A stretch of DNA of 62,936 nt, filler included, from Rhabdomonas costata (lineage: Eukaryota), in assembly GCA_019059605.1 (NCBI GenBank). It is 41 parts of 41 records of this genome, joined end to end, with 100 filler letters (N's around TTAATTAATTAA, not from the genome) between each part and the next. Parts side by side here need not be neighbours in the genome. Positions count along the whole stretch, not along the records: positions 36,904 to 38,340 come from JAHMHO010015973.1; 40 more parts are not named here. One strand, given 5' to 3'. Positions within the stretch are counted from its first letter, which is position 1. Each line of letters starts with the position of its first letter. The notes under the pieces were generated by a model. It was not told the origin of the DNA and did not search any database. It was given only the letters and a program-made list of their open reading frames with translations. Of the stretch, positions 13,741-53,809 are shown piece by piece. The position numbers and the translations under genes are program-made.

Positions 13741-15826
13741 NNNNNNNNNNNNNNNNNNNNNNNNNNNNNNNNNNNNNNNNNNNNTTAATTAATTAANNNN
13801 NNNNNNNNNNNNNNNNNNNNNNNNNNNNNNNNNNNNNNNNGGGGGTGTTTGTGTGTGCGTGCGCAGTGAGGGTCGATGGGGAAAGGAGGAGTGTTTTGGA
13901 GCGAAGAAACGAGGAATGCACTGCAAACAGAGGTGCAAGGAAAGAGAAGGAGACACGGAAAAGCAAGAAGTCGAAGGAGAGGGTACCGCATAAGAGGCAC
14001 CACAGGTGACCACCTTTTGTAGACTACCTTCCAAACAGCTCGCGAGTGCACGCACGCCCACGAGATGATCATACTTAAGGGCGCGCGTGTGAGGCCACAG
14101 TGGAGAAAGAGGTGGGAAGAGGGAAGGGTGTGCCGCGGTCAGCGAAAGCCGAAGGGTCATTCAGAGAGGCGGTCCAGGCGGCGCACCTTGCAAAAAGTGC
14201 AGGCGCAAGAAGTAGGCACCACAAGGTGACCTCACTTCGGTGTGTGTATGGTGGAATGATGTGTGTATGCTGAGAATGAACGAGAACGGAGGACGGAGGG
14301 TGGAGAGCGCCTTTTGACTGGCGGAGAAGCAAAGGGACTGGGAGGGTGGAGGCAACGTACCTTGCTAGCTGAGCCGGCAAAGAAGTGACTTCCACGGCGA
14401 GCTCACTTCAAGGCCTGAACTTGCACAAGAGCGAGATCCAGAGAAGCTGCCGCATCACCGTTTACACATGACCAGCAGCAATATTCCACAATGCGTCGGA
14501 AACATTTGTGGGCTTCAGAAGGTAGATCAGCAAGACGCCCCTGTTCCTGGATAAAATCACCTGAACGCTGCACATCAACGAGAGATTCCCCTGCGTTAAA
14601 ATCACCGAATTCTGAATTTGCGAGGAAAGCTGTACTAAAGCTTCTCTGAGTCTGCGAAGGGAGATACGAGCCTTACCAACCTTACTGCTTCTCGAAGTGC
14701 AGCACTACTGTTGCGAACACTCCTTCAGAGGTTTGCACACCTTGGGCTCGTTGTAGGGGATTTTGGGCAAAGAAGACTTTGAGTCTTCTGCCTGCACTCC
14801 GCACCAAAATGCTTTCTGCTTCCTGGGCTTCCTGCTAAACCACCGATCGCACAGCTTGCTTTTGTTGGATATGCTGGGCAGAACTTCCTGCATTACCACC
14901 CAGACCAGCACCCTGAGCTCTGCCGCTGTTTAGTGGGAGAGCTGCAGCGCCCCCAGCTGTCTTTCTCGCTTGTAATAACATGTTATATCAAAATCGTGAC
15001 GCAGTTGTCTTGAAACGCTGCTATGCAGCAGACAAGCGGGCATCTATTCAGGGACAAGACATGACACGGCAAATCCAGATGGCCTCTGCAAGGGCCTCAA
15101 AAGCACCCGAAATGGCCCTTAAATGGCTTGTAGGGTAGCTCTAAACAGAGGCATTCCTCCAGTGCCAGTATGAAGTACTCCTTGGCTCTACCCTGGTATG
15201 CTAATCAAGCCCATTTCGAATTCGAAAATGTCCTTGAATAGGGTGAGGATAGGGGCCGAAATAAGTGCCCAACCCAACNNNNNNNNNNNNNNNNNNNNNN
15301 NNNNNNNNNNNNNNNNNNNNNNTTAATTAATTAANNNNNNNNNNNNNNNNNNNNNNNNNNNNNNNNNNNNNNNNNNNNGGGGGGTGTGGTTTTTGCCATC
15401 ATGTTTGCACTCAAGTGCGCGCAGGTGAAGAACAGAGAGCAAAAGGGGACGTCCTCCCGTTTCGTCGAATCAATATGCACATGACCACAGCAGCAAAGTG
15501 GGTCATCAGCAGTTAGGTTTGTCCCCACGGCGGGTTTTGTAAAGGAGGACTGGTTGGGGTCATGCATGCTGCCGCGCAGTGACTGCTGTTGCCAGTTTTG
15601 CTCGCACACATGCTTTTTCAGTTGCAACTTTTCCTGTGAATTATTGCCTTTCCCCTGGTCCAAGTGTAAAATATTGCTGGATCTGGTGGATCTAATGTTG
15701 TACAGAAGTGGCTGCTTAATCACCCCACAGGCTGATGCCAAACATGAGGCCGTAGCTTTTGTTTTTCGTGTTCACAGGCACAAATGAATGCGCGTGTGCA
15801 CCACTTGGCGAAGCAACGGATCATAC

Positions 15827-16526
15827 CTGCCCTCCGGACTCGGCGTAGAACCCGGTGTTGTCCAGGACAATCCCGACGTCCTCCGAGGTAGACTCCGTGG
15901 AGGCCACAAACTGCTGCGTGCTGGGGAGGTAGATCGCCAGCACAGAGCCCTGGCTTTCGTTCCATACGTACTTGAAGCTATCCTGAACCCCCCCCCCCCT
16001 ACACACGCACACGACTGCTTTTGGTAGAGAGAGCGTGCAGTTCCTCGGTGCTGCGGGGAGGGAATGTCGGTTCAGGGCTCGGCAGGCGCAATTGAAAATA
16101 TGAGCTGACCCCTGAATAATGTTTGCGGCCGCAGCAGAGGCAAGGGGTGTGTAAGTGCGGGGTGAAGTGACTGAACTGTGAGCTGACTGATATCATGCGG
16201 TATCAGTACGGTACAAGGCACGGCGTTTCAACCCTCGGCCGAGTGGTTGGTCCGCCTTCCTTGGATGCTCTTCGGCGGGTTCTTCCTCTGAAATCGGATG
16301 TTAGTCGGGTTTACAGGGCTCTGGAATGACGGGAATAAGGGCTGTAGTTGAGAGAGAGAGAGAGAGAGAGAGACGGGGAAGGAGAGATGGCTCACACGTT
16401 GGTGGGGGGAATCTTAGCGACGGACTCCAGGTGGTGGGTCTGGTCCGTGCCCAGGAATCCCTTGCGGGCCACCATGGTGTCCCCACCGCTCTTGGTCCTC
16501 TGCTCCTCCATCAGCTTCTCAAAGCC
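15827..16526 (-). CDS. AARS: Alanyl-tRNA synthetase, exons 16526-16398 and 15982-15827
   Basis: GFEKLMEEQR...PTN|DSFKY...VGIVLDNTGFYAESGGQ is the AlaRS signature; phase-0 junction. Confidence 0.92.
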
Positions 16527-24085: not shown

Positions 24086-24133
24086 TTAGGGTTAGGGTTA
24101 GGGTTAGGGTTAGGGTTAGGGTTAGGGTTAGGG
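24086..24133 (+). repeat. Interstitial telomeric repeat (TTAGGG)8
   Basis: Eight perfect copies plus a TTCGGG variant, 61 nt upstream of an exon. Confidence 0.95.
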
Positions 24134-24194
24134 TTCGGGTTTGCAAGAATTGACAGGGCTCTGGCGTGGTTCCTTGTTGACAATTTTATCGCAG

Positions 24195-24280
24195 GTGGAC
24201 CCCTCGGGGTCGTATTGGGCATGGAAGGCTTCGGCCATCGGGAAGAATATGGTGAATGCCAAGACCTTTCTGGAAAAACG
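24195..24280 (+). CDS. PSMA2: 20S proteasome subunit alpha-2, internal exon
   Basis: [33 protein letters not shown] bounded. Confidence 0.92.
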
Positions 24281-24869
24281 GTGTGTGTGTGCTTACTCTG
24301 CACCTCTCGACCTCTCGGATGGACCTGGACCTCTTGGATCTCACAGCGGGTCCAGAATTGTTCCTTCTGAGAGATGGGGGACACGGGCGTTCTGATGTAG
24401 TGCAATCTGACGTTCGATCTTGGTGTCTGTGAACGGTTTGAATATTGGAAAACAAAAATGGTGATCCTCACGAGCATGCCCCCCCACCCACCCCCAAACA
24501 CACCCACCACNNNNNNNNNNNNNNNNNNNNNNNNNNNNNNNNNNNNNNNNNNNNTTAATTAATTAANNNNNNNNNNNNNNNNNNNNNNNNNNNNNNNNNN
24601 NNNNNNNNNNGTTGGTTTGGAAGGCACAGCAGCACAGATCACTCCAGACGGAGCAGACACTATCGAAAAAGAAGCTATTCAGGATCGAACAAATGGGCAG
24701 CTGTGCAGTACTGCGGTTGTGAATAGCTTCTTTTTCGATAGTGTCTGCTCCGTCTGGAGTGATCTGTGCTGCTGTGCCTTCCAAGGTGCACTGCTGTCGC
24801 TCATCGGAATGGGTGCCCGTTCACAGCCCTCGTCCTCCTTTGCCCTCCTTTGTTTTGGTGGATGCACAG

Positions 24870-27285: not shown

Positions 27286-27988
27286 CTGCACACAGGAATC
27301 GAATTCGAAAAGCTTCCCCATGCTTCTTAAACTTCACTCTTTCTTTAATATATCATCAACCAAATACATTACAGACTCGTGCACCCCAGAGAGTGGGGCG
27401 AGGCTGCATTCGATTGATATGGACACTGAGGTGGGGCAGGCGGCAAGAGGCCAGGGAGCATTAAACGCTGCATAAACGTAAACAAAAACATAATATTTTC
27501 GGTGTTCGTTTTCGCCCGGGTTCATGTTTAGGTATCCCTCCCAGTGGAGGTTTGGAACCAGCTCTTCTGCCTGCGGGTTCGGGGNNNNNNNNNNNNNNNN
27601 NNNNNNNNNNNNNNNNNNNNNNNNNNNNTTAATTAATTAANNNNNNNNNNNNNNNNNNNNNNNNNNNNNNNNNNNNNNNNNNNNGGGTTGTGTGAACAAC
27701 CGTTTGTGGGGGGTTGCCTGCTGTTTGCCGAGGATGGTTTTTATTTGATTTAAAAAATTTAATAGAAGCGTCCAATTCCGCCCCGAAAAAATCAGGGAAA
27801 AGATTACAGTTAACACCGAAAATAAGTCGATAAGACAGAATACACAGTCGTCTTTTTCACCTCACTTTAACCAGGGAGGGAGGTAAACACGGCCGAGGGC
27901 AGGTGTGCAACTCTGCACCCGCCAGATCTGTTGTGAAGGACGTGCTCCTATACCCCTGTTACCCCAGGTATATATTTGTATACCCCAG

Positions 27989-28778
27989 GTCCGCACCCCT
28001 CTCAACGCCCTGCTGGCGTGCTGCACCCTTCTCAACGACACCAACCTCAGCGCGGATCAGAGCGAACTCGTTCGGCTGATGCTCTCCAGTGGCTCTCAAA
28101 TCACCAATAACATCGACTACGTCCTGGTATGCCTCTGCGTGTTCTCGTGGCTTTTGCCGCTTTTGACAAAACGTGAAATTTCAGCAGATCTGACCCAGTT
28201 TTGTCCGAAGGTTCGCAGAGGTGCTTGGAGAAGATTTTATGAGGTTACTGGGATGGATTTGTGTTCCCCACAGGCTCGCCCCTGCCCATGTGGATCAAAA
28301 AAGAGCTTCCATCTCCTGTCTCTTACATTCTCTGGAGAGCAGGGGATGCGAATGCGTTTGTACCGATACGGGGGGAAACTCGGGGGTGCAAGCTTCATTT
28401 AAGCTTAATTTTTACAACGTGGAGGTTGCGAAGCATTTCGTAGATGGATACTGACGGTTCGATAAAGATGCAATTTTCAAACACACATCCTTTCGCTGCG
28501 GTTAGGGGTTATCGATGAATTTTTGAGAAGCAGATTTTGGTACCGCGAATACGGACAGAAGGGTGCCCCCCCCCCAAAAAAAAGGAGCTGGCCCGGCTGG
28601 AGGCCAACAGCGTAGCACTGCAGAACAAGCCCTTCAGCATGGCCGAGGTGTGCCAGGCCGCGCTGGACATGGTGCGGCACCAAGCCACCGCGAAGGGGGT
28701 GCAGCTGGTGCTGGCAGGCGGGGAGGACCTTCCCTTGCTGCTGGGCGACGAGAGCAGGCTGCGGCAAGTTCTGATGAA
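27989..28778 (+). CDS. Sensor histidine kinase, HisKA and start of HATPase (exons 27989-28126, 28585-28778)
   Basis: VRTPLNALL...IDYVL|ELARLEA...LLGDESRLRQVLM: H-box tail and N-box. Confidence 0.9.
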
Positions 28779-30942: not shown

Positions 30943-32130
30943 AGCCCTGCCCCCTCTCATACCGCGGCCGCTGCCGCTTCTGCCGCCCACCACTTCACCG
31001 TCGACCTGGGATCCTTTCAGCAGTCCGTGGTCCTTCCCGGGGGCCTCGCGGACAGCATCACAGTGGACATGTCCGCGCTGGCGCCCCCAGAGCAGGTGCC
31101 CGCCCCAATCGCCGCGCTGGGGCGGTCCATGGAGGGCTCGCAGACCGACGTCACCAATCTAACGGCGCTGCTGGCCCACCCCGCGGGGGAGGCCTCGTCG
31201 TCCTCTGTTGTCATTCCCGCGCGGCGGGCGCTGAGAGCGCTAAGCACGGTGCGGACGCTGGCGAACCGGCGAGCCATGTCCCTTGGAAGGCCCGGGTTGT
31301 TTAGCAGTAACTGACACTGGCATCCAATCCCTTTACTTCCGCAGGGGGTTGCGCTTCAGCCACCCACCTCGACTTAAAAGAGCCGACATGTTGGGACGAG
31401 ACAAGTTTGTGCACATGCAGAATGCACACCCGGATCGGAGGTAACTCTCGCAAAAGAGGGTTTTTTGTACTTAATTCTGCTCTTGATGTACAGTTGCTTT
31501 ACACCTGCATGAATAGTTTGTCGTTAGGTTGTGGTGCGATTTTGGAACTGGGTTCGTGAATGGTGGGTATGCGGTGGGGATCTTCGTTCAGTCAAACTGA
31601 AGTCGCGTGAGTCGCTTGCGGGGAGCGATTCCTCAATCGAAACAAAGATAGGATTCGACATGACTGGGTCTCTCCAGACATCACGTCAGCTGTCCCAGGA
31701 AATCGACAGGCCAATCCGAACGCGTGGCTGATCTATATAGTCCAATTGCCTGCGTCCGTTGCTTGATTTTTGAGCTCACCCACTCATTTTGTTAATTTGA
31801 TATGCCATTCTATCTCCTCACTGAGCTGCTATCGTTTACCCGTCATCATCATCCCTGCGATCACCTTTTTTCCAACTCTGGTGCGCATTGCCCCTGTGGC
31901 TGTGCTTGAACAGCGTGCTCTTATTTTTTCCTCTGCTTTGCCCGTTCACTGGTGCTCTTTCCCGCTACAACTCATTGAGAATGTCAGTTCCTCTCCCCAC
32001 GCGGAAGCTGCGGCATCACGAGAAGTCGCTGAGCAATTATGACATCTTTTGGTACCGCAATGACGCCAAGGACAACCAGATGGTGATCAACTTTGTGTAC
32101 TACCTGGACAAGAACGTGGGCCTGAAGGGG
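30943..32130 (+). CDS. Unknown protein, exons ~30943-31295 and ~31980-32130
   Basis: GC3-rich open segments with splice sites; LSNYDIFWYRNDAKDNQMVINFVYYLDKNVGLKG not recognised. Confidence 0.55.
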
Positions 32131-33828: not shown

Positions 33829-35046
33829 AGCTCGATTATGAACCGGTGATCACGGCGTTTCAAGAGTCCGTTAATGGCTGTGCTGAGGAGACGGGGGAGA
33901 AAGTTGTTATGCTGTTTGAAAGCGGAGACCTGGGCATCTCTGCAAGGCAAGCTCGCTCTTCCCCCTTGCTCGCTCTTCTTTGCTCTGGGCCTGCTGCTGT
34001 GAGTTTCCATGCATTGGTATGGTATTGCCTCTAGCCACGAATGCAATTTTGGCATCTGGCGTCTGCTGTTTCTCGGTCTGGCTGTCCTGCGGAAGCAGGC
34101 CGAAAAATGTGTGGAAATGAGTGTCTTCCAAATCTTTGTGAAACAAAAATTTGGGATGACTGTCAACCGTGACGATTAAGTTTAAATGGCCCCCCTTTCA
34201 TAGCAGCGCAAACATTTAGCTATATTTTTTTAAATATATTTCGAAAATGCAACTTATCGGTGTTGTAAAATTTTCATAGTGGTGATATAGAAATTTCCAA
34301 ATTTACATGGCGGTGTTGTAGAATTATTTTTTGTAATGAAAGGTTGACGAGGGCTAAGCCGAAGCAGGCCTGGGGTCTTTTGTATATACAGTAGGCCTGT
34401 GCCCACAAAACTCACTGTGCTGCCTCCACTATAACGAAAAAGGTCCCCGAGGTGAGCTCAGTTGGTCTCGCAGGGGTTACGGGACGGTGCACGTGTTTCG
34501 GCACCACATTCTTTTTGAAATGCTATGAAATTTTCATTAATTTTTCTATTTGAAAAATTTCACATCTCCTGACCCCAAGGACCGGCCACGCAGCGTTTCG
34601 GGAGGCCTGCTGTATATACAAAAGATACCAGGCCTGCTTCGGCTTAGTCCTCTTCTCTCCCCATTCCACATCTGTGCCACAAAGTATTGAATTTTATAGC
34701 ATCGCCACAGAATTTAAGGGAAAATTCTTATGTCACCGCTATGAAGAGGGGGGGATCCTGTTGACAAACCAAACCCCAACTGTGAATCAGTGACAATTAT
34801 TCCGTTTCACCATTCCGTTTGGCCGTCCATTGGCCGCACGACTCTTTTGTTCCCTGGTCTCGTTGGTACAGGGCTGTTGCCGCCGAGTTTGCGCGGCTCG
34901 TGCGGTGCTGCAGAGACCAGAGTTCCCAACCTGAGGAACTTTTTGAGACGGATCTTTTGACATCGACCCACGTGCTGCTACCAGAGCTAGTGGTGCACTG
35001 GGTGGTCTTGTACTGGCGCTGCCTTCGCTCCTGCATGACCACAAAA
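33829..35046 (+). CDS. Unknown protein, exons to 33946 and 34872-~35046, joined by a probable GC-AG intron
   Basis: LFESGDLGISA(R)|AVAAEFARLVRCC; AAG|GCAAGC donor and CAG acceptor are both phase 2. Confidence 0.55.
34349..34652. mobile_element. ~300-bp MITE with ~50-bp TIRs
   Basis: GAGGGCTAAGCCGAAGCAGGCCTGGGGTCTTTTGTATATACAG...CTGTATATACAAAAGATACCAGGCCTGCTTCGGCTTAGTCCTC; imperfect, mid-contig, with a second copy at 32292. Confidence 0.8.
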
Positions 35047-35577
35047 GTATTGCCCGCGCCAGCGATGTTTCCTTGGGGAAATCTGCTGTGAAATATTGGG
35101 TTTCGGCAGCTAGTGACATGGCATTCTCTCGAGACACACGACTTAAAGGAGGGGGGAGGTTCAGGAAACTTTCCGCCCTTTTCCGACATTAAAACAACTA
35201 GTGTAGCGCTACATCTCGCCTTTGAAGTTCCTCAGGTTGGGAACTCTGGTCTCTGCAACACCACACNNNNNNNNNNNNNNNNNNNNNNNNNNNNNNNNNN
35301 NNNNNNNNNNTTAATTAATTAANNNNNNNNNNNNNNNNNNNNNNNNNNNNNNNNNNNNNNNNNNNNTTTTTGGTGGACAAAGTGTGTTGGCTGCGTCTTC
35401 AATACAACACGAGCCATCACCGTTGAGGACTGAGCTTGTGATAAACCAGAAATCTTCAACGGGAGTACAGTAGTCTACAATACATCTGTCCACGTCTGCG
35501 GCGGAAAGGGTTCGGCAGTTCGTTGTTGGGTTGCAATGTCGGTCCTGGAAGGAGGGATCGGGGGAGGGAAAACACAC

Positions 35578-36525
35578 CTCAAAGACTTGGATGCACTTGA
35601 ACAGGAATGCCTCGACGGGCTGCAGCTTCAGCGCGGCGGCCTGATTGCGGAGGGCACTCATGAGGCTGCCGTAGTCCACGGCCGGGATCACAACCTTGGG
35701 GAAAAGATCAGAAATGATGCCGTTGAACAGCTCAATATCGTCGCGGAGGAACTTCGGGACGTTGGAGTCGCGCAGGGCGCGCAGCAGCAGCACGTCCTCG
35801 CTCTCGTCGGGGTAGTCCCTCTTCATCAGTCCCGCCGCGGAGATAACTGAAAGAGACACACGGCAACAAGCCTACCCACCCACCCAACATGCCAACCATG
35901 AAAGTAAGTAAGTAAAAAATCCCTCGAAGTCTCGACACGTGTGCAGAGTCCGTTGTTGTCCGTTGTTGTCCGTTGTTGTCACTCCTGGAAGAGGTGAAAC
36001 TCACAGAAAGGACGAACAAAATATCAGAATATTATTTCAAACGAGCTTCCGTTTTCGATTCAAAAGGCTGCATAAAAATAGCCACACCGGAGCTTTCACA
36101 TAAAGAAGGGAAACTGAGCATAATCTAAAACCTGCTGATGAGAACTTCACTTGAGAGACTATTTAAGGGTTCTTCTTGGAACAGGGTCCCCCCAAAAAAA
36201 GGGCGCGGCATTCAAAAAAAGCTGGAGCGAAAAGGAGGCAGTTCCAACCCTTCACGGACAGTGAGGGGGGTGCAGGAAGGTCGCTCCCTCCGCACTGGAA
36301 GGATTAGCTCATAAAGAAAATACACACCAGTGTTCACAGCGCGCATCCCGAAGTCGTAGTGGTCCTGCGACGAGAGCTGCTCGGAGCTCAGCCGGAACGT
36401 CGCCACCATCTTCTTCGCCAGCTGGCGGCTGTTGGAGTACCCAAAACTGAACAGGCGGATCTCCCCGATCATCGCGTAGTCCGGCACCATGCACGCCACG
36501 GGGCGGAACAGCGCCTTCAGGTTGT
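35578..36525 (-). CDS. DNAH: Axonemal dynein heavy chain, AAA1 region (exons 36525-36328, 35846-35578)
   Basis: DNLKALFRPVACMVPDYAMIGEI...LSSEQLSSQDHYDFGMRAV...LLLRALRDSNVPKFLRDDIELFNGIISDLFP. Confidence 0.97.
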
Positions 36526-37258
36526 CTGCCGCATAGGACACCCACACCCACTTACTTGTCATGACCACAGACTTGCACCAATTACTCGGCCAGTCTACGT
36601 GGGCACACCGGCAGATGCCAACCGTGACAGCAAGTTGAACGACAACCACGACGGACCAGGTGGCAACTCGTGACAGGAGTGGATGGGACAGGACTTTAAT
36701 TGAGATGGAATTCCGTCACAGTGCAAGTGAAAAACAGCTTCGGGTTTCCACTTAGCCTCCCTCTCAGGATCTGAACGGACAACCCCAAAACGCCACCACA
36801 ACCNNNNNNNNNNNNNNNNNNNNNNNNNNNNNNNNNNNNNNNNNNNNTTAATTAATTAANNNNNNNNNNNNNNNNNNNNNNNNNNNNNNNNNNNNNNNNN
36901 NNNGGGGGGGGGGGGAAGGCTGAGGTCGGCTTTTCGCCTTTTCTGGGAGGCTTGCCATGTGAACTCGAATGTGGATGAGTTGGGGTTGTACGGGTTTAAG
37001 AGCTGGAAAAGGGCATTCTAGAGGAAAATTTCTCCCAAAGAGGTCGAAACCGCTACACACAGTACTCAAATGGACGTCGAAACTCGATAATACGTACCCC
37101 CGACCTGAAAAAAAAAACATAGAGTTAGGCCGATTTCCGGGAGGTGGAGTTTTTCACCCCTCTGAGATGGGGATGCACGTGAGCGCGGGGTGAGGAGGCA
37201 GAAGGATAGTGAATGAACGGGAAAAAGCGATAGAGTATAGCGGCTGCATTTTGGGAAC

Positions 37259-38075
37259 CGGCTTGAGATTGGTTCGGCGGTGCAGGACGCCCAGCAGGGT
37301 GTGCATCCTCTCAAAGACCCGGGGGTCAGCACACCGCAGAGCCCCACTGATGTACCCCTGCAGCAGCTCCGTCACCACGAGAAGCTTGGCTCCGCAGCAC
37401 TCCTGGAGCACCCAACCGCAACCCATCACCTGGTTCTGCGGAGGCATGCCCATTTTCGAGGCAGAGATCATGGCCGATTTTTCCGATCAATCAATGAGCA
37501 ATCAGTATCTTTAGGTTTGCGAGTTTTGGTATGAATCGGTGACGCGGGGCCGATACTCCCCCCCCCACCCTTCTCTTCATGAGCACCCATCTCTCCTTTT
37601 CAGTTTTCGTTTATATGTGAACCTCGCAGCATGGAGTCATTCTGACTCGCATTAGGGTGACCTTGGGGAGGGGGGCACTCCTGCAGAGCGCGGAGGTAGA
37701 CATCCCCGACAGCCTCCCAGATGGACTTCCGTTGGTGGTCCAGCAGGCACCGCCTCAAGCACTGAAATACCAACCCAGGAGAAACACAACGAGGAGTCGC
37801 AAGGCCCCCATGTACGAAGAAAAAGGGAAAAGGGAAAAGGCAAACGGGCAAAGACAGCGGGGGGTCTGCTGAAGAGCGCCAGTTGGAAGTGCACGAATTT
37901 GTAAAGTGAGCGAGGGAGTTTTGCGGTTCCCGTTTCATCAGAGCGTACCAGGTGTACATCGCGGGCCATCTCCGCAGAGAGCGTGAACAGGAAGGCCAGC
38001 AGCCGTCGGCCCTCCTCCAGGCCCAACACCTCTGCGGAGCATAGCGCCAGCACGGCCTGGTAGAACTCCCGCGAG
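37259..38075 (-). CDS. NCAPG2: Condensin II subunit CAP-G2 (exons 38075-37949, 37761-37681, 37402-37259)
   Basis: EEGRRLLAFLFTLS...VH|...IWEAVGDVYLRALQ|ECCGAKLL...LLQGYI parallels the CAP-G2 EEGRRFL..LF...IH...EIYFRAW..A.G...IQDF region. Confidence 0.75.
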
Positions 38076-41000
38076 CTGGCAACCAAACAAGAAAAAAACA
38101 GCGCACCACCCTCACCACTGAAAACAACCGTCAGGAAAAGACTCACACCCACCTTACTGTGATGGAAGTGATGGAATTGGGGGATGTATAAGCTTCTAGT
38201 TTGGGTGACCGAGACAGTGTATAAATTGAAGTTGTGCAGTTGATGCATAAGCCAGTGCCAGTGATAAGCCAGCGGAAATGACCAACTTCAATTTATACAC
38301 TGTCTCGGTCACCCAAACTAGAAGCTTATACATCCCCCAANNNNNNNNNNNNNNNNNNNNNNNNNNNNNNNNNNNNNNNNNNNNTTAATTAATTAANNNN
38401 NNNNNNNNNNNNNNNNNNNNNNNNNNNNNNNNNNNNNNNNGGTTTGTGGTCCACTGCCATGAGTACGGAGCGTTTACACACACGCTTACGCTTTTTTGGA
38501 CAGCGGAAGGACAACTGCGCACTCCCCCCGATCCCGCGGTCCAAAAAAGCGTAAGCGTGTGTGTAAACGCTCCGTACTCATGGCAGTGGACCACGAACCG
38601 TACATCCCCAAATACTTCTTGAACGCAGACTGAGGGGAAGATATAAATTGGACATCAGAGCAAGCAGACAACGATGCATGGCAGGCGCCAGACGATCGAG
38701 TAATGGGGGCGAAGATAAAGAACAATAAGCGTCAGCGTAGGTAAGTGCATGGGATGGCGCTCCACAGAGAGCCTGACAAGTGGGTACCACACAGGGGGGG
38801 GGGCTTGACCTGGCTCCGGTTTCCGCTTCTTTTGGGGCTGAGCCATTTCCTCAAGACAGAACAGAACTCCCACACAGACCCCTTCCCTCTCCTCTTAAAA
38901 AAGGCTTACTGTGCAAGTGGAGCCACAGGGTCCTCATAAACTCTTTTCAAATTGGCGACCTTGCCCACCCGTGCCATTCGCTGGTCCCCCAACACTATTT
39001 CTTGGAAACATTGGACAGAGTTACAATTGGCGCTGCGCCAGGTAGCTTTTGGCGCTCACCAAGTTCGCAGTTCGCAGCGGTTAAAGAACAGGCAAGCACG
39101 CATCCAGAAAGCACGCATCCGGCCAATGAAAAATGATGCGCGTACCACCCCATTACTTTTTGTACAGGTTAATGCTGATGCTGATGAAAACAAAATTCTG
39201 GTGCATGAAAATCATGTTGAGCGAAAAATCTGGCATGCATACAAATTGATTGACTGACTTGAAATTCTCGGAAATTTCTCGCCCTCGTTTTGTTCGGAAC
39301 AAACGAGAGAGCTAGAGTGCCTTTTCCTGGCCAGCCTATTCAGGTGAAATACGAGAATGACGGGAGTTCCAGTCCCAGAAAGTCACGGTCTCAGCGCAGG
39401 ATGCTCCAGCTGCGCACTGGCCCAAGGGGAAACACAACAGGGCACAGCTCCCTATCTCTCTCTGTCTCACTCACAGTACATAGCAGAAGTGATCAAACAA
39501 AGGCCGCGGCGGGCGGGGGGAGGTGCGCACGCGCACGCGCACGGCAAATCTTGAGCCGACGAAAAAAAGCAAGGGCTGGGGGTTCGAGTTGTCAAGCGGA
39601 GGGACCAGGGAACTATTCGTTAAAGCCTCCCTCCGGGTTTCATTCCCTTACCACTGTCCATGCACCACATACTGCTTAGCAATCATCACGGCAAGAAGTG
39701 GGTTCAGTGAAAAAAGTACCAACACGCACTACGCATAACCACACCAACCTGCACTGTCATGGACACACCGTTTCAGACGGAAAAAAATACAGGAGCCCAC
39801 CTCCGGGGAAACCATGCGTGGGGACTCCAGATGTATGTACAGGGGACAAATCAATCATAAAGATAACAAAAAACAANNNNNNNNNNNNNNNNNNNNNNNN
39901 NNNNNNNNNNNNNNNNNNNNTTAATTAATTAANNNNNNNNNNNNNNNNNNNNNNNNNNNNNNNNNNNNNNNNNNNNTTTTTGTTGTCACCCCTCTCTCAC
40001 TCACGTGTTTTTTTTTGCCCCCAAGTGTTGCTTCGAGTTAGGGTTGCAGCTTTTCGGGACACTTTCAGCTTTGCGGGCAGTTCTCAGAATGCAACTAATG
40101 AGGTCCTTCGACGCTGTCCTTGCTGCCTCAGCTTCGTTTTCTGCTTTAAGCATCTTGCAAGTTTTCTTGTTATGGAGTGGTTGGGTAGGATGCAATGTCG
40201 AACGAAATAACTTAAGGTTAGCGTAGCCTGCAGGTGACGTTTTCACTGCACTTCTCCAGGCCAGTATTGCCAGAGGATGCGCCCCTGACCTTGTCTTGTT
40301 TGTTTTGTCTTGTTTGTCATAGGGCGACCAGATCATGTTTTGGACTCGGAGACGCAACGACTACACTGCCTTGTATGGTCCAAAGTTTGGCGCGGTGGTC
40401 TTGCAGCACGTTCGAGTGGGCAGTTGCATTTTAGACGGTGCTGTTGCGACTGGGAATGGGAGGAGGATGGAGAGTTCCTTCGTTCTTCAAGGTTGTAGTT
40501 CGATCGATGAAGGGAAAAGGGTTGCCGCGAGTTATGCCCATGCATTGGGGCCTTCTGTGGTTGCCATGGGGACTTCGTGTGTCACATGAGGCAGGTTTCT
40601 CAGGGCCTAACTTTTGGAAACCGCTTCTCTCTCTGTCCTACTTTTCAACGAACACGGGGCGCTATCTGGGCACACTTTCGATTAAGGATTCCCAATGGAT
40701 CTCCCCCGTTCTGGTCCACAGTCTCTTCCTCTCTTTCGGGAGGTAACTTGCCAGCAGGGTCATTTTCTCTCTTACCGAGGTTTTGCCATATTTCCAGCCT
40801 CGCAGCCACAGAGGCCAAAGCGTTTTCGGGCGCATAAGGGTTTGCCCACGTACAGGCCACACCCGTGGAGAAATTTGCATGACGTGTTTTGTGATGTATG
40901 TTTGACGCGAGGCCAATAGGCATGACAGGAGGCAAAAAAAACGCTCCTCGAAAGTCCAGTCATTGTGTGACAATGAACACGTTATTTTTGTTTATTTGTA

Positions 41001-49000: not shown

Positions 49001-50103
49001 GGCTCCCGTATCAACACGCTGGCTTCTGGCCACCCCAAGAAACTGCCCTCCCCTCCTTGACTACATGGCGTCCCACTCGTCCATTAAAACCAACCACNNN
49101 NNNNNNNNNNNNNNNNNNNNNNNNNNNNNNNNNNNNNNNNNTTAATTAATTAANNNNNNNNNNNNNNNNNNNNNNNNNNNNNNNNNNNNNNNNNNNNGTT
49201 GTTGTTGCTAAACCCTTCTTGGAAAAACTTGTTTCTCCGATTCGGCGGACAGAAATATGCCAATACACGCGAAGCTGGTGAAACTCGCATGATGTACCAA
49301 TCATGTTTCAGAACTCTTTCGCGCGCTATTTTGAGTGTTTCTTTTTTTTGCTCCGCCGAAGTTTTCTTCTTGCAATTATCACAAATACACCAGACTCTGA
49401 CATTGGTGCCAGGACAGGTCGCGTAAAGCAATCCTCTGTGCTCATAGTTCAAGGCTCCCTCAAAGCAAACCTCGCAGAAAAGTACACTTGCGCTGTGGCG
49501 AAGGCCACCGCGCACCAGAAAGTAACATGAGAAACAGTAAAAAGCATTGTACATCCAGCCAGGGTATCAGCGCATCTCCTGAAACTCGTGCTTGCGCTCA
49601 TCCGGGTGGTACAGCACAATCGTCCCTGCCGTAGGAATAAAAAATCACTGCATCCGCTCTTCTTCGCTTTCTGCAGCCTGAGTTCTAACTTGACCAATGC
49701 GACAACCTCCTCACCCAAATCTTCTGCATCGCAGCGACTGCTGCTGATAAAAACGAGACAAACGCGCTCACTCTCGCGGTGCGTGAGCACACCGTTGGCT
49801 GCAAAGCTTCCCGGGTTGGCAAATCTGCAGTCCATGTACTCAGCTTCCCAGACCTCACCAGGCTCGCATACAAAAACCTGTGCGCGTTTTGTGTGTTGTC
49901 CAGATGACCTACTGCCCACCCCAAACCTCCCATTCAACGAAAGAGGTTGCAGGATTCCCTGCGGCTTCGGGAAAAAGGCAGACAACACTACGAAGCCGTA
50001 TTTGGGTTCTCTACCGATTCGGCCTTGTGCACAGCTTGATGGGAGGGGGGAGGGCTGGGGCGCGCGATAGGAGAAACCGGACTGTAGTCCAAGGCAAACA
50101 CAC

Positions 50104-50237
50104 CGTATCAGGCAAGGGAAACAGACGCAAGGAGTGGTCATGGGCCCAAAACACCGGTGTCACCGTGAAGGGCACGCAGCTCAGGTGGGCCTGATCCACC
50201 AATGTCTTCATCAAATGCTGCGAGGTGTCACACACAG
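50104..50237 (-). CDS. POLE2: DNA polymerase epsilon subunit 2, internal exon
   Basis: HLMKTLVDQAHLSCVPFTVTPVFWAHDHSLRLFPLPDT; AG/GT bounded. Confidence 0.9.
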
Positions 50238-51657
50238 CTGTACTGACTTGATGGTCAATAATTACGACTAGCAGTTAAGGACAACAGCAAAAAAAGACAA
50301 CCCTTTGAAAGTTATACCGGTCGAGCTTCTTCCAAAAAAAAAAAGAAGCACTTGCTAATACGCGGAACCAAAGCATCGTACACCATGTGAGCTCCTTACA
50401 CCACAGGTTTCCTGTCACCCCCAACGCAACTATCTACCTGCACCTCACTGATCGGATTCGGAGGCATCATACGGAAGAACAGAGCTTAGAGAATGCTGGG
50501 GGATAGGAACCCACCCAACCTGCCAACATGCTTTGTTTCTTGACTTTATGTTGCCGACAGAATCATGATAATGTGTGCACCACCCGCCCACGATGCCTTC
50601 CCTTAACGTCCCTCCCGTGGCACACCACAAACCANNNNNNNNNNNNNNNNNNNNNNNNNNNNNNNNNNNNNNNNNNNNTTAATTAATTAANNNNNNNNNN
50701 NNNNNNNNNNNNNNNNNNNNNNNNNNNNNNNNNNGTGTGTGTCTTCCAGTCCAGGGGTCATCACAGTGAGCATTCCCTTATATAGCCATTATATGGATTT
50801 GTGAGGTCCATACTAAACACAGCCACTCAAGCGGATAAGGGTGAAACTGAGATTGCTGGGCGGAGATTTCTTGCGGAATACTGGGGGTTCTGTGGGAAAG
50901 GGACCTATGTTTCTTGGGTACGGCAGCCAAGGGTTTCTTTTCTCTGGGAACCATTGTACCAGGTGGTACTGAAATATCAACCGCATGAGAGACGCAAAAC
51001 AGGATGATAAGGGTTCGAGAGAATGGGAAGTGGCTTGTGGAGCTCGCCAAAAGAGCGTTTTTCGCAACTTTGGAGAAGGAGATCGGGAGCAGAACTACGT
51101 AGTTGGACTACTTTGCTGACGGTTTGTCCAATGATGGCTGGGGGTGGGTGTAAAGGTCGAGCCATTTTCGGAGTATGCAGGGTGTAGCCTCTCAGTTAGG
51201 AACAGTGAAAATTGAAGCCGGTTTATTATCAAAAGGGTAACTGTTTGTTTCGGAGTGGTTACCGAATTTGATGATATTGGGCGTTGCATTCGCTAGATCA
51301 GTGGAGCTGGTACTCCTAGCCTCCTGCTTGTATGCTCCTCATCTTCAACCTCGAATCAACAACACTCCCTGCGTCCAGCCGGGAATGTTTCACTCTTTGA
51401 ACGTGGGGAAGCAGATTTGCACTATCCCCTGGGAAAGAGGAAGAGTCAGACGAAGGACGTCAGTGGACCATCCGTGGTAGTTGCATGTGAGGATACCACC
51501 ATTCTATCTCTCATGGTCTTGGATGTTTGATGGAGGGGTGGTCTTCGAGGGTGCCTTGGAGTGTAAGGTGGTGAGTGGTGAGGTGGAGGGTGTCGAGCGG
51601 TAGGGTGGAAGTTGGGCCCTGCATCTGGGTGTCAAGGTGAGGGTGGTTCCTGCGTCG

Positions 51658-52115
51658 GTACAGGGCAGGGCCGAGAGGATCACCTTGCTGGACCCCTTGT
51701 GTTGACCACAGCACGCCATCGGGAGAGAAGAGGGGAGTTGGCCTTAGCACCACGCCGCCCACCCCGCGCCACCTGGCAAGATCAGGAGCCCTGCGAGCCA
51801 CCTGGGCAAGCATGTGGTCTCGATGGAGCGAGTTAAAGGCATTGCGAAAGTTAGTTGCACCACATACTCGCCCTCCTGGGCCTGCGCGTGCCATTCCCGA
51901 ACGGTGTGAACGAGCAGTTCACAGGCACCAGGGACCCCTACTCCCAATTGCAGCGGGGTAAGGGTATCGATGAGTTGGCATAGGCGACTTGACACAATGC
52001 ATTTGCCGACCAACCGCCCAAGGGCCTCACCGATGGCGATGGGGCGGAGACCTCCGTCGGGCTTGCGCAGTGCCAACAGTCGTGCCCCAGCCAGATACGG
52101 AGCCAAGTCCAGCGT
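51658..52115 (-). mobile_element. CRE/SLACS-type non-LTR retrotransposon reverse transcriptase relic
   Basis: GARLLALRKPDGGLRPIAIGE..RLVGK...PLQLGVGVPGACE (frameshift) FRNAFNSL...GVQQGDPLGPALY; homology ends before the YxDD motif. Confidence 0.88.
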
Positions 52116-52366
52116 ATGGTCCCATTGGCGGTTGGTCGGCAAATGCTTTGTGTCAAGTCGCCTATGCCAACNNNNNNNNNNNNNNNNNNNNNNNNNNNNN
52201 NNNNNNNNNNNNNNNTTAATTAATTAANNNNNNNNNNNNNNNNNNNNNNNNNNNNNNNNNNNNNNNNNNNNGGGGTGATTTGGGTTGGGCTCAAGAAATG
52301 GCAGCAGGTACATTTCACCCACTTTGAGCAATCTCACAGAAAAGATACTAAGTGGGTGAAATGTAC

Positions 52367-53700
52367 CTGCTGCCATTTCTTGAGCCCAACCCAAATCATG
52401 CCCCCGTAGTAATAATACAACAGAAAGCTGCGCGGAGTAAGGCCCGTTAGCTTGGGATTGACCTCGAACACGGTGTTGTCCAAGACTTTCCTGGCAACCT
52501 GTCGAGAAGCAAGCAAGTTGAACTTCAAGCGGTGCAGGGTCATTGGACTGACGGACGCAACCCACTCCTTTGACCTTATAGTTCTTGGCCAGCAGACATA
52601 GAAGGGCGAATTCTGCGTGAGCTGGGCAGATGTCGTCCACCGTCGGGCATAGTTTTGGAATCAGTCTGAGTAAAACCGGTATTCCCCGCTGAGGCTGCCG
52701 CTCCCGGCGCAAGGCTTCCGCATACTTTTGAACCAATGTCGCAAACTTGTCCAGGCAATGTTCTCGGATGTGCCCAGGAACAAACCTGAATCAGCGCACG
52801 ACGAACTTGTAAATGGCAAAACTCAAAATAAGAAGGATTCTAAAAAGGCAAAAAATTCTGCATTCTTTATTCCCTCTTCCCCTCGTGGGACAATGTTGGG
52901 CAAACTGTGCACAAACCGTATGTCTATTTCAATATTGCCTTTTCGGGGGATAGGGGGACAAATTCGACGGCACATGACTATATTATGCTATTTTATGAGC
53001 AAAATTCAGTTCTTGGTGAAAGAAGGAATTTCAGGGGGAGGACTATGCCTTGGGGTCCTCGGGCAAGGAGTGCCAGATTTCTTTTACTTTGGAGAGGATC
53101 CTTTTAAAATTGAGTTTTTGTCACAATTTTGTCAAAACACGTAAAAAACATTTTATCTCGGCTTTTTTATACGGAGGCTTCTTTCTTTTATAATAATGCA
53201 TGAAACTGAATCGGAACGTTGTTGTTTTAACGTGTTCTAAATTGGAGGAAAAACTCCTCCTCCCGAAATGCTGTGGCCTGAACGGCACCGATCCACGAGT
53301 GAAGCAAGACTGATTCACTGACAAACAAACAAAAGAAGAAGGAAAAAAGAAAGAACTAACCCATCAAATAGAGTCTCACAGGCTGCAGCAAAATGAATGT
53401 CCACGGCGTTCTGCGACCTGACCCACAGCAGATAGCATATCGCAAAATCGTGGCGCGCAGGATCAAGGGCACCGACAGCAGAAAGAAGATGAGCAGAATT
53501 GGCCTTGATAAGCGCCGCGTTCTGGTCAAAAAACTTCTTCAACCTGCAAAAAAGAACGACATCAACAAAGAAAGATGAACAAGAAAAGAAATAGCACGTG
53601 AGAAATCAGGGAACCCACCCAGGTTGCGGCTCAGTTTTCATGCCCTGAGGCTCTTTCGCGCTGATGAGCCTCGAGTGTACATACCGCAAGATGTCGGAAC
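52367..53700 (-). CDS. COPS3: COP9 signalosome subunit 3, exons ~53700-53619, 53543-53361, 52785-52575, 52498-52367
   Basis: ALDPARHD...PQRGIPVL...ICPAHAEFALLCLLAKNYK|...FLLYYYYGGMIWVGLKKW; all junctions phase-compatible. Confidence 0.92.
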
Positions 53701-53809
53701 CACCCACANNNNNNNNNNNNNNNNNNNNNNNNNNNNNNNNNNNNNNNNNNNNTTAATTAATTAANNNNNNNNNNNNNNNNNNNNNNNNNNNNNNNNNNNN
53801 NNNNNNNNG

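What the first reader, a model, noticed from the sequence alone, without database searches (positions are those of the whole stretch)
37403..37680. Probable GA-AG intron in NCAPG2 bounded by a 9-nt direct repeat and a terminal stem
Seen: CAGGAGTGC (minus strand) occurs at both junctions (37683-37675 and 37405-37397). Joining there gives VYLRALQ|ECCGAKLL, collinear with CAP-G2 IYFRAWKKASG as I recall it. No register within the repeat gives GT-AG; the best is GA...AG. The downstream GT (37661) is out of phase with the acceptors. The intron's first 8 nt GAGUGCCC pair fully with GGGUGCUC just before the final CAG. Inference: a non-canonical, structure-closed intron, possibly created by an insertion with a 9-bp target duplication that supplied the AG. 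An alternative is a GC donor at aat|gcgagt, which adds 10 aa.
Basis: partly seen in the sequence, partly recalled or inferred. Interest (0 to 1): 0.72.

Follow-up and report, generated by a model that had tools for sequence, protein, structure and literature searches.

The report
Stem-closed non-canonical intron, euglenozoan type
A 278-base interruption in a condensin-like gene lacks normal splice signals, is flanked by a 9-base repeat and folds its two ends together, which matches the odd "nonconventional" introns already known from Euglena and its relatives rather than something new.

Summary
The sequence facts hold. CAGGAGTGC sits at both junctions (11 of 12 bases when extended). Deleting 278 nt joins two open frames as ...VYLRALQ|ECCGAK.... 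None of the 10 possible registers is GT-AG or GC-AG. The intron ends pair: the first 8 pairs have probability 0.97-0.98, and 20 of the first 25 nt are paired.

One claim is wrong. The GT at 37661 is in phase with an AG at 37391-37390, so a canonical but poor GT-AG alternative exists.

The window is 41 unrelated 1.4-kb contigs joined by linkers. Its dynein fragments match trypanosomatid chains best. Every intron I could map by homology is G|GT...CAG. So the host is probably a euglenozoan with mostly conventional introns.

No GT-AG, junction repeats and a terminal stem together define the published euglenid/diplonemid nonconventional introns, for which a MITE-like origin has been proposed. I file this as a probable new member of that known kind, or an "intermediate" intron (GAGTG resembles the GTGTG donor). 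Confidence is about 0.55.

No RNA data, no homologue and no second copy could be obtained. Splicing and exact borders remain inferred. Interest is modest.

The parts
37949..38116 (-). Exon 1 of the CAP-G2-like gene fragment (GEGG...ARDVHL). It is preceded by a CAG acceptor at 38120-38118.
   Evidence: Open frame and translation. Pfam Condensin2nSMC, residues 25-55 to profile positions 3-33, E=0.019. GC by codon position 0.70/0.45/0.75.
37762..37948 (-). Conventional GT-AG intron 1, 187 nt (CCTG|gtacgc...tatttcag|TGC).
   Evidence: Sequence. Junction repeat of 1 nt and end duplex of -10.6 kcal/mol. 10+U7+10 energy 0.0. Borders are inferred from the frames, not from homology.
37681..37761 (-). 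Exon 2 (CLRRCLLDHQRKSIWEAVGDVYLRALQ).
   Evidence: Translation. GC3 0.85.
37675..37683 (-). 5' copy of the 9-nt direct repeat CAGGAGTGC. It extends to 37686 as CTG CAG GAG TGC.
   Evidence: D10; junction repeat 3+6=9.
37403..37680 (-). The 278-nt putative nonconventional or intermediate intron, shown in the GA-AG register. The equivalent registers run from 37683..37406 to 37674..37397. The register 37682..37405 (AG-CC) has a pyrimidine|purine pattern at both junctions.
   Evidence: Read-through hits a stop after 26 codons.
37656..37680 (-). 5' arm of the terminal helix (GAGUGCCCCCCUCCCCAAGGUCACC, C-rich).
   Evidence: 20 of the first 25 nt are paired in the MFE fold. Pair probabilities are 0.81-0.98, except one pair at 0.53.
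37406..37430 (-). 3' arm of the terminal helix (GGUGAUGGGUUGCGGUUGGGUGCUC, G-rich), followed by an unpaired CAG.
   Evidence: 25x25-nt duplex of -21.2 kcal/mol.
37397..37405 (-). 3' copy of the direct repeat CAGGAGTGC. It extends to 37408 as CTC CAG GAG TGC.
37219..37402 (-). Exon 3 (ECCGAKLLVVTELLQGYISGALRCADPRVFERMHTLLGVLHRRTNLKPVPKMQPLYSIAFS...). Its 3' end is uncertain.
   Evidence: Translation. GC3 0.78. No database homologue was found.
37660..37661 (-). Alternative GT donor (CAAG|GTCACC). It is the best conventional donor nearby and sits in phase 1.
   Evidence: G at -1, as in 6 of 6 mapped donors.
37390..37391 (-). Alternative AG acceptor (GCGGAG|CC). It is the only acceptor in phase with the GT at 37661.
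   Evidence: G at -3, against CAG in 6 of 6 mapped acceptors. Four AGs (37437-36, 37431-30, 37404-03, 37401-00) lie within 47 nt upstream; the first three are CAG.
37649..37650 (-). Alternative GC donor (TAAT|GCGAGT). Used with the acceptor at 37403 it adds 10 aa.
   Evidence: T at -1.
37105..37218 (-). Possible GT-AG intron 3, 114 nt (TCCC|gttcat...tttttttcag|GT), leading to a further open frame at 36905-37104.
   Evidence: Frames and sequence only. Not supported by any search.

Best explanation
The segment 37680..37403 (minus strand, 278 nt) is most likely a euglenozoan-type nonconventional intron, or an "intermediate" one, in a CAP-G2-like gene.

Anatomy:
- No register gives GT-AG or GC-AG borders.
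- The same 9 nt (CAGGAGTGC) stands at both junctions, so the exact cut sites are undefined. Every register gives the same mRNA, ...RALQECCGAK....
- The C-rich 5' end and the G-rich 3' end form a helix of about 20 bp. It starts within 0-3 nt of each junction and brings the two exons side by side.

Inferred mechanism, by analogy with Euglena. It is not shown here and is unknown even there. The stem presents both junctions to a machinery that removes the segment precisely, probably after the conventional introns and possibly as a circle.

Inferred origin: an insertion into an intact exon (...CTG CAG GAG TGC TGC...) that duplicated 9 bp of target. The source would be a MITE-like element or filler DNA from staggered-break repair.

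Shown here: the repeat, the frames, the lack of canonical borders within the repeat, the pairing, and the contrast with the conventional introns of the same data set.

Inferred: that it is spliced at all, where it is cut, by what, and how it arose.
For: 1. Frames. Read-through stops after 26 codons. The 278-nt deletion joins two frames with coding-like GC3 of 0.85 and 0.78, against 0.47-0.59 for the intron's three codon positions.

2. Borders. 0 of 10 registers is GT-AG or GC-AG.

3. Junction repeat. It is 9 nt here, against 1, 1, 4 and 3 nt in four conventional introns of the window and 2 in a putative fifth.

4. Terminal pairing.
- The first 8 pairs have p=0.97-0.98, and 20 pairs fall within 25 nt.
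- The 25x25-nt duplex is -21.2 kcal/mol, against -5.0 to -13.8 for the four conventional introns. 0.83% of 13,614 pseudo-introns reach it.
- By the published 10+U7+10 measure it scores -15.9 and -16.1 kcal/mol in two registers, against 0, 0, -4.4 and -3.0 for the conventional introns. In E. gracilis most nonconventional introns lie between -10 and -2 (PMC11170887, section read).

5. Conventional routes are poor. All 6 mapped donors have G at -1 and all 6 mapped acceptors are CAG. The only good donor (37661) is out of phase with all three CAG acceptors. Its one in-phase partner is a GAG that lies behind four AGs, three of them CAG.

6. Host.
- The dynein fragments score best against chains of 9e5c and 9y6s: 122/121 and 114/111 bits, against 100-105 and 89-103 for Chlamydomonas and mammalian chains.
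- Two of the 6 donors are GTGTGT, which fits the E. gracilis GTGTG consensus (passage seen).

7. Literature. [quoted passage not shown]
Against: - No transcript evidence.
- No homologue crosses the junction.
  - Exon 3 found nothing real among 1.84 billion representatives. The single hit, P0004, is a tandem-repeat artefact.
  - Nothing came from the word-indexed searches, from the PDB, from metagenome contigs (only a chance 27-aa hit) or from the Atlas.
- Collinearity with human NCAPG2 rests on my own recollection of that protein. On that recollection the spacing fits this join (-1 aa) about as well as the GT37661/AG37390 join (+1 aa).
- The tested Euglena splicing code (5'-N3-CDG ... CH'G-N5-6|R; PMC12501133 abstract) is not met. 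CAG falls at +4..+6 only in the synonymous register that starts at 37686, and no CTG falls at -8..-6 or -9..-7 (my reading).
- The pairing strength is largely compositional: 27% of end shuffles match it.
- The 9-nt repeat has an in-frame chance of about 3%.
- Every intron mapped by homology in the window is conventional, so the prior for a nonconventional one in this host is low.
- The last 84 nt of the segment are open in the exon-3 frame with GC3 of 0.75. This could mean that exon 3 starts further upstream.
Confidence: 0.55

Rival explanations
1. The mRNA is the same, but the spliceosome makes it. This would be a U2-type intron with a GA donor (CAG|GAGTGC ... CTCCAG|G). The stem only helps to bring weak sites together. 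In euglenid terms this is an "intermediate" intron.
For: - GAGTG differs from the GTGTG donor consensus of E. gracilis (PMC11170887 passage), and from the two GTGTGT donors of the window's dynein gene, only at +2.
- G at -1 and a CAG acceptor match 6 of 6 mapped sites.
- A possible branch A (gtgAtgg) lies about 22 nt upstream with no AG in between (my reading).
- Intermediate introns that combine conventional borders with a stem are described (PMC3935182 passages).
Against: - +2 is the most invariant donor position.
- There is no pyrimidine tract: 0.50 pyrimidines at -23..-4, against a median near 0.7 in the mapped acceptors (range 0.45-0.75).
- Two CAGs upstream (37436, 37430) would compete.
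- The better donor at 37661 would give an out-of-frame product.
Confidence: 0.15
2. It is a conventional GC-AG intron, 37650..37403 (248 nt). The mRNA keeps ECPPPQGHPN, and the repeat and stem are coincidences.
For: It is stop-free and in phase. GCGAGT is a good +1..+6 match to common GC donors (general knowledge). The acceptor is a CAG.
Against: - T at -1, against G in 6 of 6 mapped donors.
- It adds 10 residues. By my recollection of human NCAPG2 that makes the spacing about 9 too long.
- It leaves the 9-nt repeat (about 3% in frame) and the -21.2 kcal/mol pairing (0.83%) unexplained. The ends of this version pair at only -11.8.
Confidence: 0.08
3. It is a canonical GT-AG intron, 37661..37390 (272 nt: CAAG|GTCACC ... 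GCGGAG|CC), giving ...ALQECPPPQAKLLVV....
For: - It is stop-free and in phase.
- The donor has G at -1 and starts GTCA, like two CSN3 donors of the window (GTCAAA, GTCAGG).
- By my recollection the spacing to human NCAPG2 would be +1.
Against: - The acceptor has G at -3, against CAG in 6 of 6.
- Four AGs, three of them CAG, lie 9-46 nt upstream of it. A scanning spliceosome would stop earlier and shift the frame.
- The ends do not pair: -10.2 kcal/mol, and 0.0 by the 10+U7+10 measure.
- The repeat is left as chance.
Confidence: 0.07
4. It is not an intron. It is an unspliced insertion that disrupts the gene (a pseudogene or a deleterious allele), or an artefact of amplification and assembly.
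For: - An intact 9-bp duplication suggests a young insertion.
- The data come from amplified DNA with clear chimeras. The same contig ends in a 65-nt palindrome that is 95% complementary (I1).
- No RNA evidence exists.
Against: - The flanking exons keep open frames and coding-like GC3.
- An artefactual insertion would need two template switches at the same 9-mer.
- The ends are built like known excisable introns.
Confidence: 0.1

Closest known systems
Nonconventional (noncanonical) introns of euglenids and diplonemids, including "intermediate" introns
   Same: - The borders are not GT/GC-AG.
- Short direct repeats at the junctions make the borders ambiguous. This is the "ss-variant" class, 11,653 introns in the E. 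gracilis set (PMC11170887).
- Terminal inverted sequences bring the ends together.
- There is no clear pyrimidine tract.
- They co-exist with conventional introns in the same gene.
- The termini are G/C-rich, as in hemistasiid diplonemids (PMC12621601).
- A MITE-like origin has been proposed (PMC3935182).
   Different: - The Euglena CAG/CTG code and its spacing (+4..+6 with -8..-6) are not met.
- The helix here starts at +1 to +3 and is longer (about 20 bp).
- The repeat (9 nt) seems longer than those mentioned in the passages I read (for example CAG). I did not see a length distribution, and supplements were not opened.
- Splicing is not shown here.
Non-canonical introner elements of Amoebophrya (Syndiniales)
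   Same: Direct repeats overlap the exon/intron borders, 8-20 nt inverted repeats form a hairpin that joins the exon ends, and the terminal dinucleotides vary (PMC7789003 passages).
   Different: - Their direct repeats are 3-5 nt.
- Many belong to repeated families.
- The host is an alveolate, whereas the window's dynein is closest to trypanosomatid chains.
- No family was found here.
Transposon-derived introners of Micromonas, Aureococcus and Polarella (TSD co-opted as splice site)
   Same: The proposed origin is the same: insertion with a target-site duplication, so that excising the element plus one duplicate restores the exon (PMC11282704 passages).
   Different: - Those carry or co-opt GT/GC-AG and are spliceosomal.
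- Their TSDs are 3 nt in Micromonas.
- They occur in thousands of similar copies.
- Here there are no canonical borders and only a single copy in 59 kb.
GA-AG and GC-AG introns of dinoflagellates
   Same: A GA donor with an AG|G acceptor is one of the possible registers.
   Different: - All six mapped donors in this window are GT.
- The acceptors are followed by T, T, A, G, G and G.
- The host looks euglenozoan.
- Those introns are not defined by a stem or by a 9-nt repeat.

Membership tests
Euglenozoan nonconventional intron | The host is a euglenid or diplonemid. | tested here: inconclusive
   - Two dynein fragments score highest against chains of 9e5c and 9y6s.
- 9Y6S occurs in the text of the Leishmania tarentolae preprint, but the passage holding the code was not shown, so the link is inferred. 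That 9e5c is T. brucei is only recalled.
- The genome has introns and GTGTGT donors, unlike kinetoplastids.
- No rRNA or SL RNA lies in the window.
Euglenozoan nonconventional intron | Borders are neither GT-AG nor GC-AG. | tested here: met
   0 of 10 registers that give this mRNA has such borders. Canonical pairs exist only for other mRNAs.
Euglenozoan nonconventional intron | A stable terminal pairing brings both junctions together. | tested here: met
   The pairs have p=0.97-0.98. The duplex is -21.2 kcal/mol, against -5.0 to -13.8 in 4 conventional introns. The 10+U7+10 measure reaches -16.1. The strength is partly compositional.
Euglenozoan nonconventional intron | Direct repeats at the exon/intron junctions. 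| tested here: met
   9 nt exact, 11 of 12 when extended.
Euglenozoan nonconventional intron | Pyrimidine|purine at both junctions. | tested here: met
   2 of 10 registers meet it: 37682..37405 (C|A, C|A) and 37676..37399 (U|G, U|G).
Euglenozoan nonconventional intron | The Euglena code: 5'-N3-CDG ... CH'G-N5-6 | purine exon start. | tested here: not met
   CAG falls at +4..+6 only in the synonymous register 37686..37409. There is no CTG at -8..-6 or -9..-7 in any register (my reading; the code is from the PMC12501133 abstract). This code is defined for Euglena, not for all euglenozoans.
Euglenozoan nonconventional intron | It is removed from the mRNA, after the conventional introns, as a circle. 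| not testable with these tools
   No runs were offered.
U2-type spliceosomal intron | GT (or GC) at +1,+2 and AG at -2,-1, in phase, with sites like the host's. | tested here: not met
   For this mRNA there is none. For other mRNAs, 13 GT-AG and 17 GC-AG stop-free pairs exist. Only the donors at 37661 and 37622 have G at -1, and both need the GAG acceptor at 37390.
Introner / MITE-derived intron | Target-site duplication flanking the element. | tested here: met
   A 9-nt direct repeat is present as a pattern. Its origin by transposition is inferred.
Introner / MITE-derived intron | Terminal inverted repeats at the very ends of the element. | tested here: inconclusive
   The complementary arms are imperfect. 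The last 6 nt before the 3' repeat copy pair with the 5' repeat copy, not with the element's own 5' end.
Introner / MITE-derived intron | Many similar copies in the genome. | tested here: inconclusive
   There is no second copy of the 278 nt or of either terminus in the other 40 contigs. Only 59 kb were available.
Condensin II subunit G2 (CAP-G2/NCAPG2) | A Condensin2nSMC domain (PF12422) above the curated cut-off. | tested here: inconclusive
   Exon 1 scores E=0.019 and 15.5 bits against a 27-bit cut-off, at profile positions 3-33. It is the only family at E<=10. Exons 2, 3 and 4 give no hit. Exon 3 gives weak AP5Z1 hints instead (E=0.2 and 0.12).

The most novel reading that the evidence does not exclude
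This is a freshly gained intron caught close to its birth. A mobile or repair-derived 269-bp insert with an intact 9-bp target duplication landed in a conserved exon of CAP-G2. It is tolerated because its C-rich and G-rich ends fold into the stem that the euglenozoan nonconventional excision system recognises. If so, it would be direct single-locus evidence for the long-proposed insertion origin of nonconventional introns, which is not yet established. The longer helix and the missing CAG/CTG code would mean that the system reads structure rather than the Euglena motif.
Probability: 0.25. Interest if true: 0.6.

Novelty: new member of a known kind. Interest (0 to 1): 0.3.

Why it matters
How euglenozoans remove nonconventional introns, and whether those introns come from transposons, are both open questions (PMC6221363, PMC12621601, PMC11282704).

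This locus combines a perfect 9-nt duplication, a long terminal helix and no Euglena CAG/CTG code. It sits in a host whose other mapped introns are conventional. That makes it a useful test case:
- If it is spliced, recognition does not need the Euglena motif.
- The intact duplication would point to insertion as the origin.

If it is not spliced, it is just an insertion in a gene. On present evidence it adds one probable example to a known class.

Tried and rejected
- Own genome: none is held. Earlier findings: none by place, words or sequence.
- Homologues to test the junction all failed:
  - The search for homologous proteins with exon 3 in "longer" mode: 89 candidates, none scored.
  - The same tool with exon 1 in "longer" mode at E<=10: 563 candidates, none scored.
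  - The exhaustive representative search with exon 3: one hit, a 1037-aa tandem-repeat protein matched in 17 stretches, rejected as spurious.
  - PDB with exon 1: 0 hits at E<=10. PDB with exon 3: 3 hits at E 0.12-1, none condensin.
  - Metagenome loci: 1 locus, matched only through the exact word NLKPVPKM, 36% GC, no other exon. Rejected.
  - Protein Atlas: best score 0.84 with kinase-like bacterial clusters for exon 3, and no usable hit for exon 1.
  - Pfam on exon 4, on exon 2 plus read-through, and on the long ORF: nothing at E<=10.
- Taxonomy through an Rpb5 fragment: only 3 candidates, none scored.
- Rfam: nothing at gathering score in the window. On the contig at E<=1 there were only sub-threshold miRNA-like hits on the terminal palindrome and two weak hits. 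One of these, SrbA at 37609-37697 on the plus strand (16.1 bits against a gathering score of 69), overlaps the intron's 5' part on the opposite strand. None is credible.
- A window-wide scan for "repeat of 8 nt or more plus paired ends" gave 1,134 repeat pairs. At least 25 pair better than the candidate, so that pattern alone does not pick out introns.
- Pfam on 300 ORFs of 79 aa or more, to find further introns, gave few genes. The sample of homology-mapped introns stays very small.
- Upstream-donor models (GT at 37710 or 37701) are rejected. They lack G at -1, and they would remove VYLRALQ, the stretch that by recollection matches the CAP-G2 motif.
- A joined exon protein could not be handed to any search, so no profile coordinates across the junction were obtained.
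Full report
What the window is.
The 62,936 bases are not one locus. They are 41 pieces of 1,433-1,443 nt joined by N44-TTAATTAATTAA-N44 linkers. Neighbouring genes therefore say nothing about each other. The finding lies on the piece 36904-38340, and the gene is on the minus strand. The piece ends in a 65-nt palindrome that is 95% complementary (I1). That is an amplification chimera and not part of the gene.

The observation.
- CAGGAGTGC stands at 37683-37675 and at 37405-37397. It extends to 11 of 12 bases (D10).
- Exon 2 (37761-37681) reads CLRR...VYLRALQ. Read-through continues as ECPPPQGHPNASQNDSMLRGSHINEN and then stops.
- The frame ECCGAKLLVV... opens downstream.
- Deleting 278 nt in any of the 10 registers inside the repeat gives ...RALQECCGAK.... 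Three further registers to the left give the same protein, because CTG and CTC both encode Leu.
- None of the 10 registers is GT-AG or GC-AG.
- The first 8 nt pair with GGGUGCUC just before the final CAG.
- The GC donor at 37650 would add 10 aa.
- One statement is wrong. GT37661 (CAAG|GTCACC) is out of phase with the three CAG acceptors, but it is in phase with the AG at 37391-37390. That gives a stop-free GT-AG intron of 272 nt.

Is it more than chance?
Each feature alone is only moderately unusual.
- An exact repeat of 9 nt or more between window pairs of this size and spacing occurs in 483 of 5,986 pairs elsewhere in the data (8.1%). That is roughly 3% once the frame is required.
- The 25x25-nt end duplex of -21.2 kcal/mol is matched by 113 of 13,614 same-length pseudo-introns (0.83%). 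It is also matched by 27% of shuffles of the two ends, so it comes from a C-rich 5' end facing a G-rich 3' end.
- The fold of the whole segment is ordinary (z = -0.21).
- A window-wide scan shows that "repeat plus pairing" alone turns up often.
The weight comes from all three features meeting exactly where two coding frames must be joined, and from the contrast with real introns of the same data set, described next.

The host and its normal introns.
- Two dynein heavy-chain fragments on piece 35367-36803 match chains of 9e5c and 9y6s best. They score 122/121 and 114/111 bits, against 100-105 and 89-103 bits for Chlamydomonas and mammalian chains.
- 9Y6S occurs in the text of the preprint on the Leishmania tarentolae 96-nm repeat. 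That 9e5c is Trypanosoma brucei I only recall.
- Alignment to those chains and to human CSN3 maps introns precisely:
  - dynein, ACTG|GTGTGT...TTTCAG|TT (36327..35847), plus one further donor (GAG|GTGTGT) and one further acceptor (GGCAG|AC);
  - CSN3, TAAG|GTCAAA...GACAG|GT (52574..52499), CAG|GTACAT, and probably GTGG|GTCAGG...ATTCAG|GT.
- With intron 1 of the gene in question, all 6 donors have G at -1 and GT, and all 6 acceptors are CAG.
- So the host is an intron-bearing relative of the trypanosomatids, a euglenid or a diplonemid, with mainly conventional introns.
- GTGTG is the E. gracilis donor consensus (PMC11170887, passage seen). This hints at a euglenid. I leave the host at "euglenozoan".

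Contrast with those introns.

| Measure | Candidate | Conventional introns (n=4) |
|---|---|---|
| Junction repeat | 9 nt | 1, 1, 4, 3 nt |
| 25x25-nt end duplex | -21.2 kcal/mol | -10.6, -5.0, -13.8, -13.7 |
| 10+U7+10 energy | -10.0, -15.9, -16.1, -7.6 in the four left registers | 0, 0, -4.4, -3.0 |

- The 10+U7+10 measure is the one used for E. gracilis. There most nonconventional introns fall between -10 and -2, and 35% of GT-AG introns score 0 (PMC11170887, section read).
- In the partition function the first 8 pairs have p=0.97-0.98, and 20 of the first 25 nt are paired.
- When 15 nt of exon are added on each side, the helix runs on into the exons. The same has been noted for hemistasiid diplonemids (PMC12621601).

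Conventional ways out are all poor.
- Enumerating every donor/acceptor pair that keeps the frame open gave 13 GT-AG and 17 GC-AG pairs.
- Only the donors at 37661 and 37622 have G at -1.
- Both need the acceptor GCGGAG|CC. It has G at -3 and lies behind four AGs, three of them CAG, within 47 nt. It would not be expected to be chosen.
- The GC donor at 37650 has T at -1.
- The donors at 37710 and 37701 lack G at -1 and would remove VYLRALQ.
- The ends of these alternative introns pair no better than ordinary introns (-10.2 to -11.8).

What it is.
Published work defines euglenid nonconventional introns by four features:
- variable borders that are not GT-AG;
- direct repeats at the junctions, which make the borders ambiguous;
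- inverted sequences near the ends that bring the junctions together;
- no pyrimidine tract.
These introns are often gained at new positions, are removed after the conventional introns, appear as circles, and are excised by an unknown machinery. A MITE-like origin has been proposed (PMC3935182 passages; PMC6221363 passages; PMC11282704 passages; PMC11170887).

Diplonemids of one family have about 97% such introns, with G/C-rich pairing ends. Other families have 2-3% (PMC12621601). In one heterotrophic euglenid, 29 of 29 introns in six genes were conventional and seven nonconventional ones were confirmed (PMC8219788, section read).

The present segment meets the border, repeat and stem criteria. 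It meets the pyrimidine|purine rule in 2 of 10 registers. The register 37682..37405 also has near-maximal terminal pairing. It does not meet the genetically defined Euglena code, N3-CDG...CH'G-N5-6|R (PMC12501133 abstract). Because GAGTG is one base away from GTGTG and the 3' end is CAG, it could equally be an "intermediate" intron that the spliceosome handles.

Origin.
The simplest history is an insertion into ...CTG CAG GAG TGC TGC... that duplicated 9 bp. Two points weaken a plain MITE reading:
- The last 6 nt before the 3' repeat copy pair with the 5' repeat copy rather than with the insert's own end.
- No second copy of the insert or of its termini occurs in the other 40 pieces. That is only 59 kb, so this test is weak.
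Filler DNA from staggered-break repair is an alternative.

Gene identity.
- The only Pfam family that touches exon 1 at E<=10 is Condensin2nSMC (E=0.019, profile positions 3-33, below the cut-off).
- Exons 2-4 hit nothing. Exon 3 gives only weak AP5Z1 hints.
- From my own recollection of human NCAPG2, exons 1-4 look collinear with it. This was not tested. On the same recollection the repeat join is 1 residue short, the GT37661 join 1 long and the GC join about 9 long. It argues against the GC model but does not separate the first two.

What remains open.
- No transcript, homologue or second copy could be obtained.
- The last 84 nt of the segment are open in the exon-3 frame with GC3 of 0.75, which I cannot explain.
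- Gawryluk et al. 2016 on diplonemid single-cell genomes is not held. I know it only as cited by others.
- No supplements were opened.

Verdict.
This is probably a real, stem-closed, non-GT-AG intron of the euglenozoan nonconventional or intermediate kind. It is a new member of a known kind.

| Reading | Confidence |
|---|---|
| Nonconventional excision at the repeat (best explanation) | 0.55 |
| Same mRNA made by the spliceosome (GA-AG, "intermediate") | 0.15 |
| Unspliced insertion or artefact | 0.10 |
| GC-AG, 37650..37403 | 0.08 |
| GT-AG, 37661..37390 | 0.07 |

The remaining 0.05 covers other combinations, such as the upstream acceptors at 37436 and 37430.

Noticed in passing
whole window (for example 1438-1537, 36804-36903, 38341-38440): The window is 41 pieces of about 1,437 nt joined by N44-TTAATTAATTAA-N44 linkers. 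The pieces look sorted by length and are not neighbours in a genome.
   Followed up: yes
ends of most pieces (for example 7691-7710, 13841-13860, 36785-36803): On the + strand the pieces tend to begin with G/T-only runs and end with C/A-only runs. These look like remnants of degenerate-primer whole-genome amplification (the interpretation comes from general knowledge).
   Followed up: no
38177-38241 / 38276-38340 and 52272-52400: Terminal palindromes on two pieces: 65-nt arms at 95% on the first, and an inverted copy of the CSN3 exon end on the second. They are probably amplification chimeras. The first draws sub-threshold miRNA-precursor hits in Rfam.
   Followed up: partly
35367-36803 (-): An inner-arm-type dynein heavy-chain fragment (AAA1 region) with a 481-nt GT-AG intron. 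Over 66 residues of the first fragment I count 62 identical to the best chain. GC3 is very high (0.86-0.94, read from columns of mis-framed rows).
   Followed up: yes
52272-53708 (-): A CSN3 (COP9 signalosome subunit 3) fragment with a 76-nt and a probable 637-nt GT-AG intron.
   Followed up: yes
37671-37691 and 37859-37879 (-): The exon 2/intron junction sequence (GCGCTCTGCAGGAGTGCCCCC) has a 17 of 21 look-alike inside conventional intron 1 (D1). It may be chance.
   Followed up: no
37403-37486 (-): The last 84 nt of the putative intron are open in the exon-3 frame, with GC by codon position of 0.50/0.46/0.75, which looks coding-like. This could mean an upstream acceptor (CAG at 37436 or 37430) or a coding-derived insert. 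Unexplained.
   Followed up: partly
34254-34700: An inverted duplication on piece 33829-35266. Similar peptides occur on both strands, and CAGGCCTG and TGTATATACA are repeated with strongly pairing ends (-34 kcal/mol). It is either a foldback element or another chimera.
   Followed up: no
51744-52223 (-), 27887-28399 (+), 31020-31355 (-): An ORF that looks like a reverse transcriptase by eye, with no Pfam hit at 0.01. There are also weak HisKA (E=7e-5) and TetR_C_14 (E=5e-5) hits, which could be bacterial contamination among the pieces.
   Followed up: no
4144-4506 (+), 15824-16192 (-), 24132-24392 (+), 50014-50274 (-), 6634-7017 (+), 4964-5904 (-): Other gene fragments: Rpb5 C-terminal domain (E=2.7e-26), alanyl-tRNA synthetase, a proteasome subunit, DNA polymerase epsilon subunit B, an F-box and disintegrin-like repeats. 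Coding density is low overall.
   Followed up: no
37105-37218 (-): A possible third intron of the same gene (TCCC|GTTCAT...TTTTTTTCAG|GT, 114 nt) leads to an open frame at 36905-37104. By my recollection only, that frame resembles the next CAP-G2 segment. The donor lacks G at -1.
   Followed up: partly
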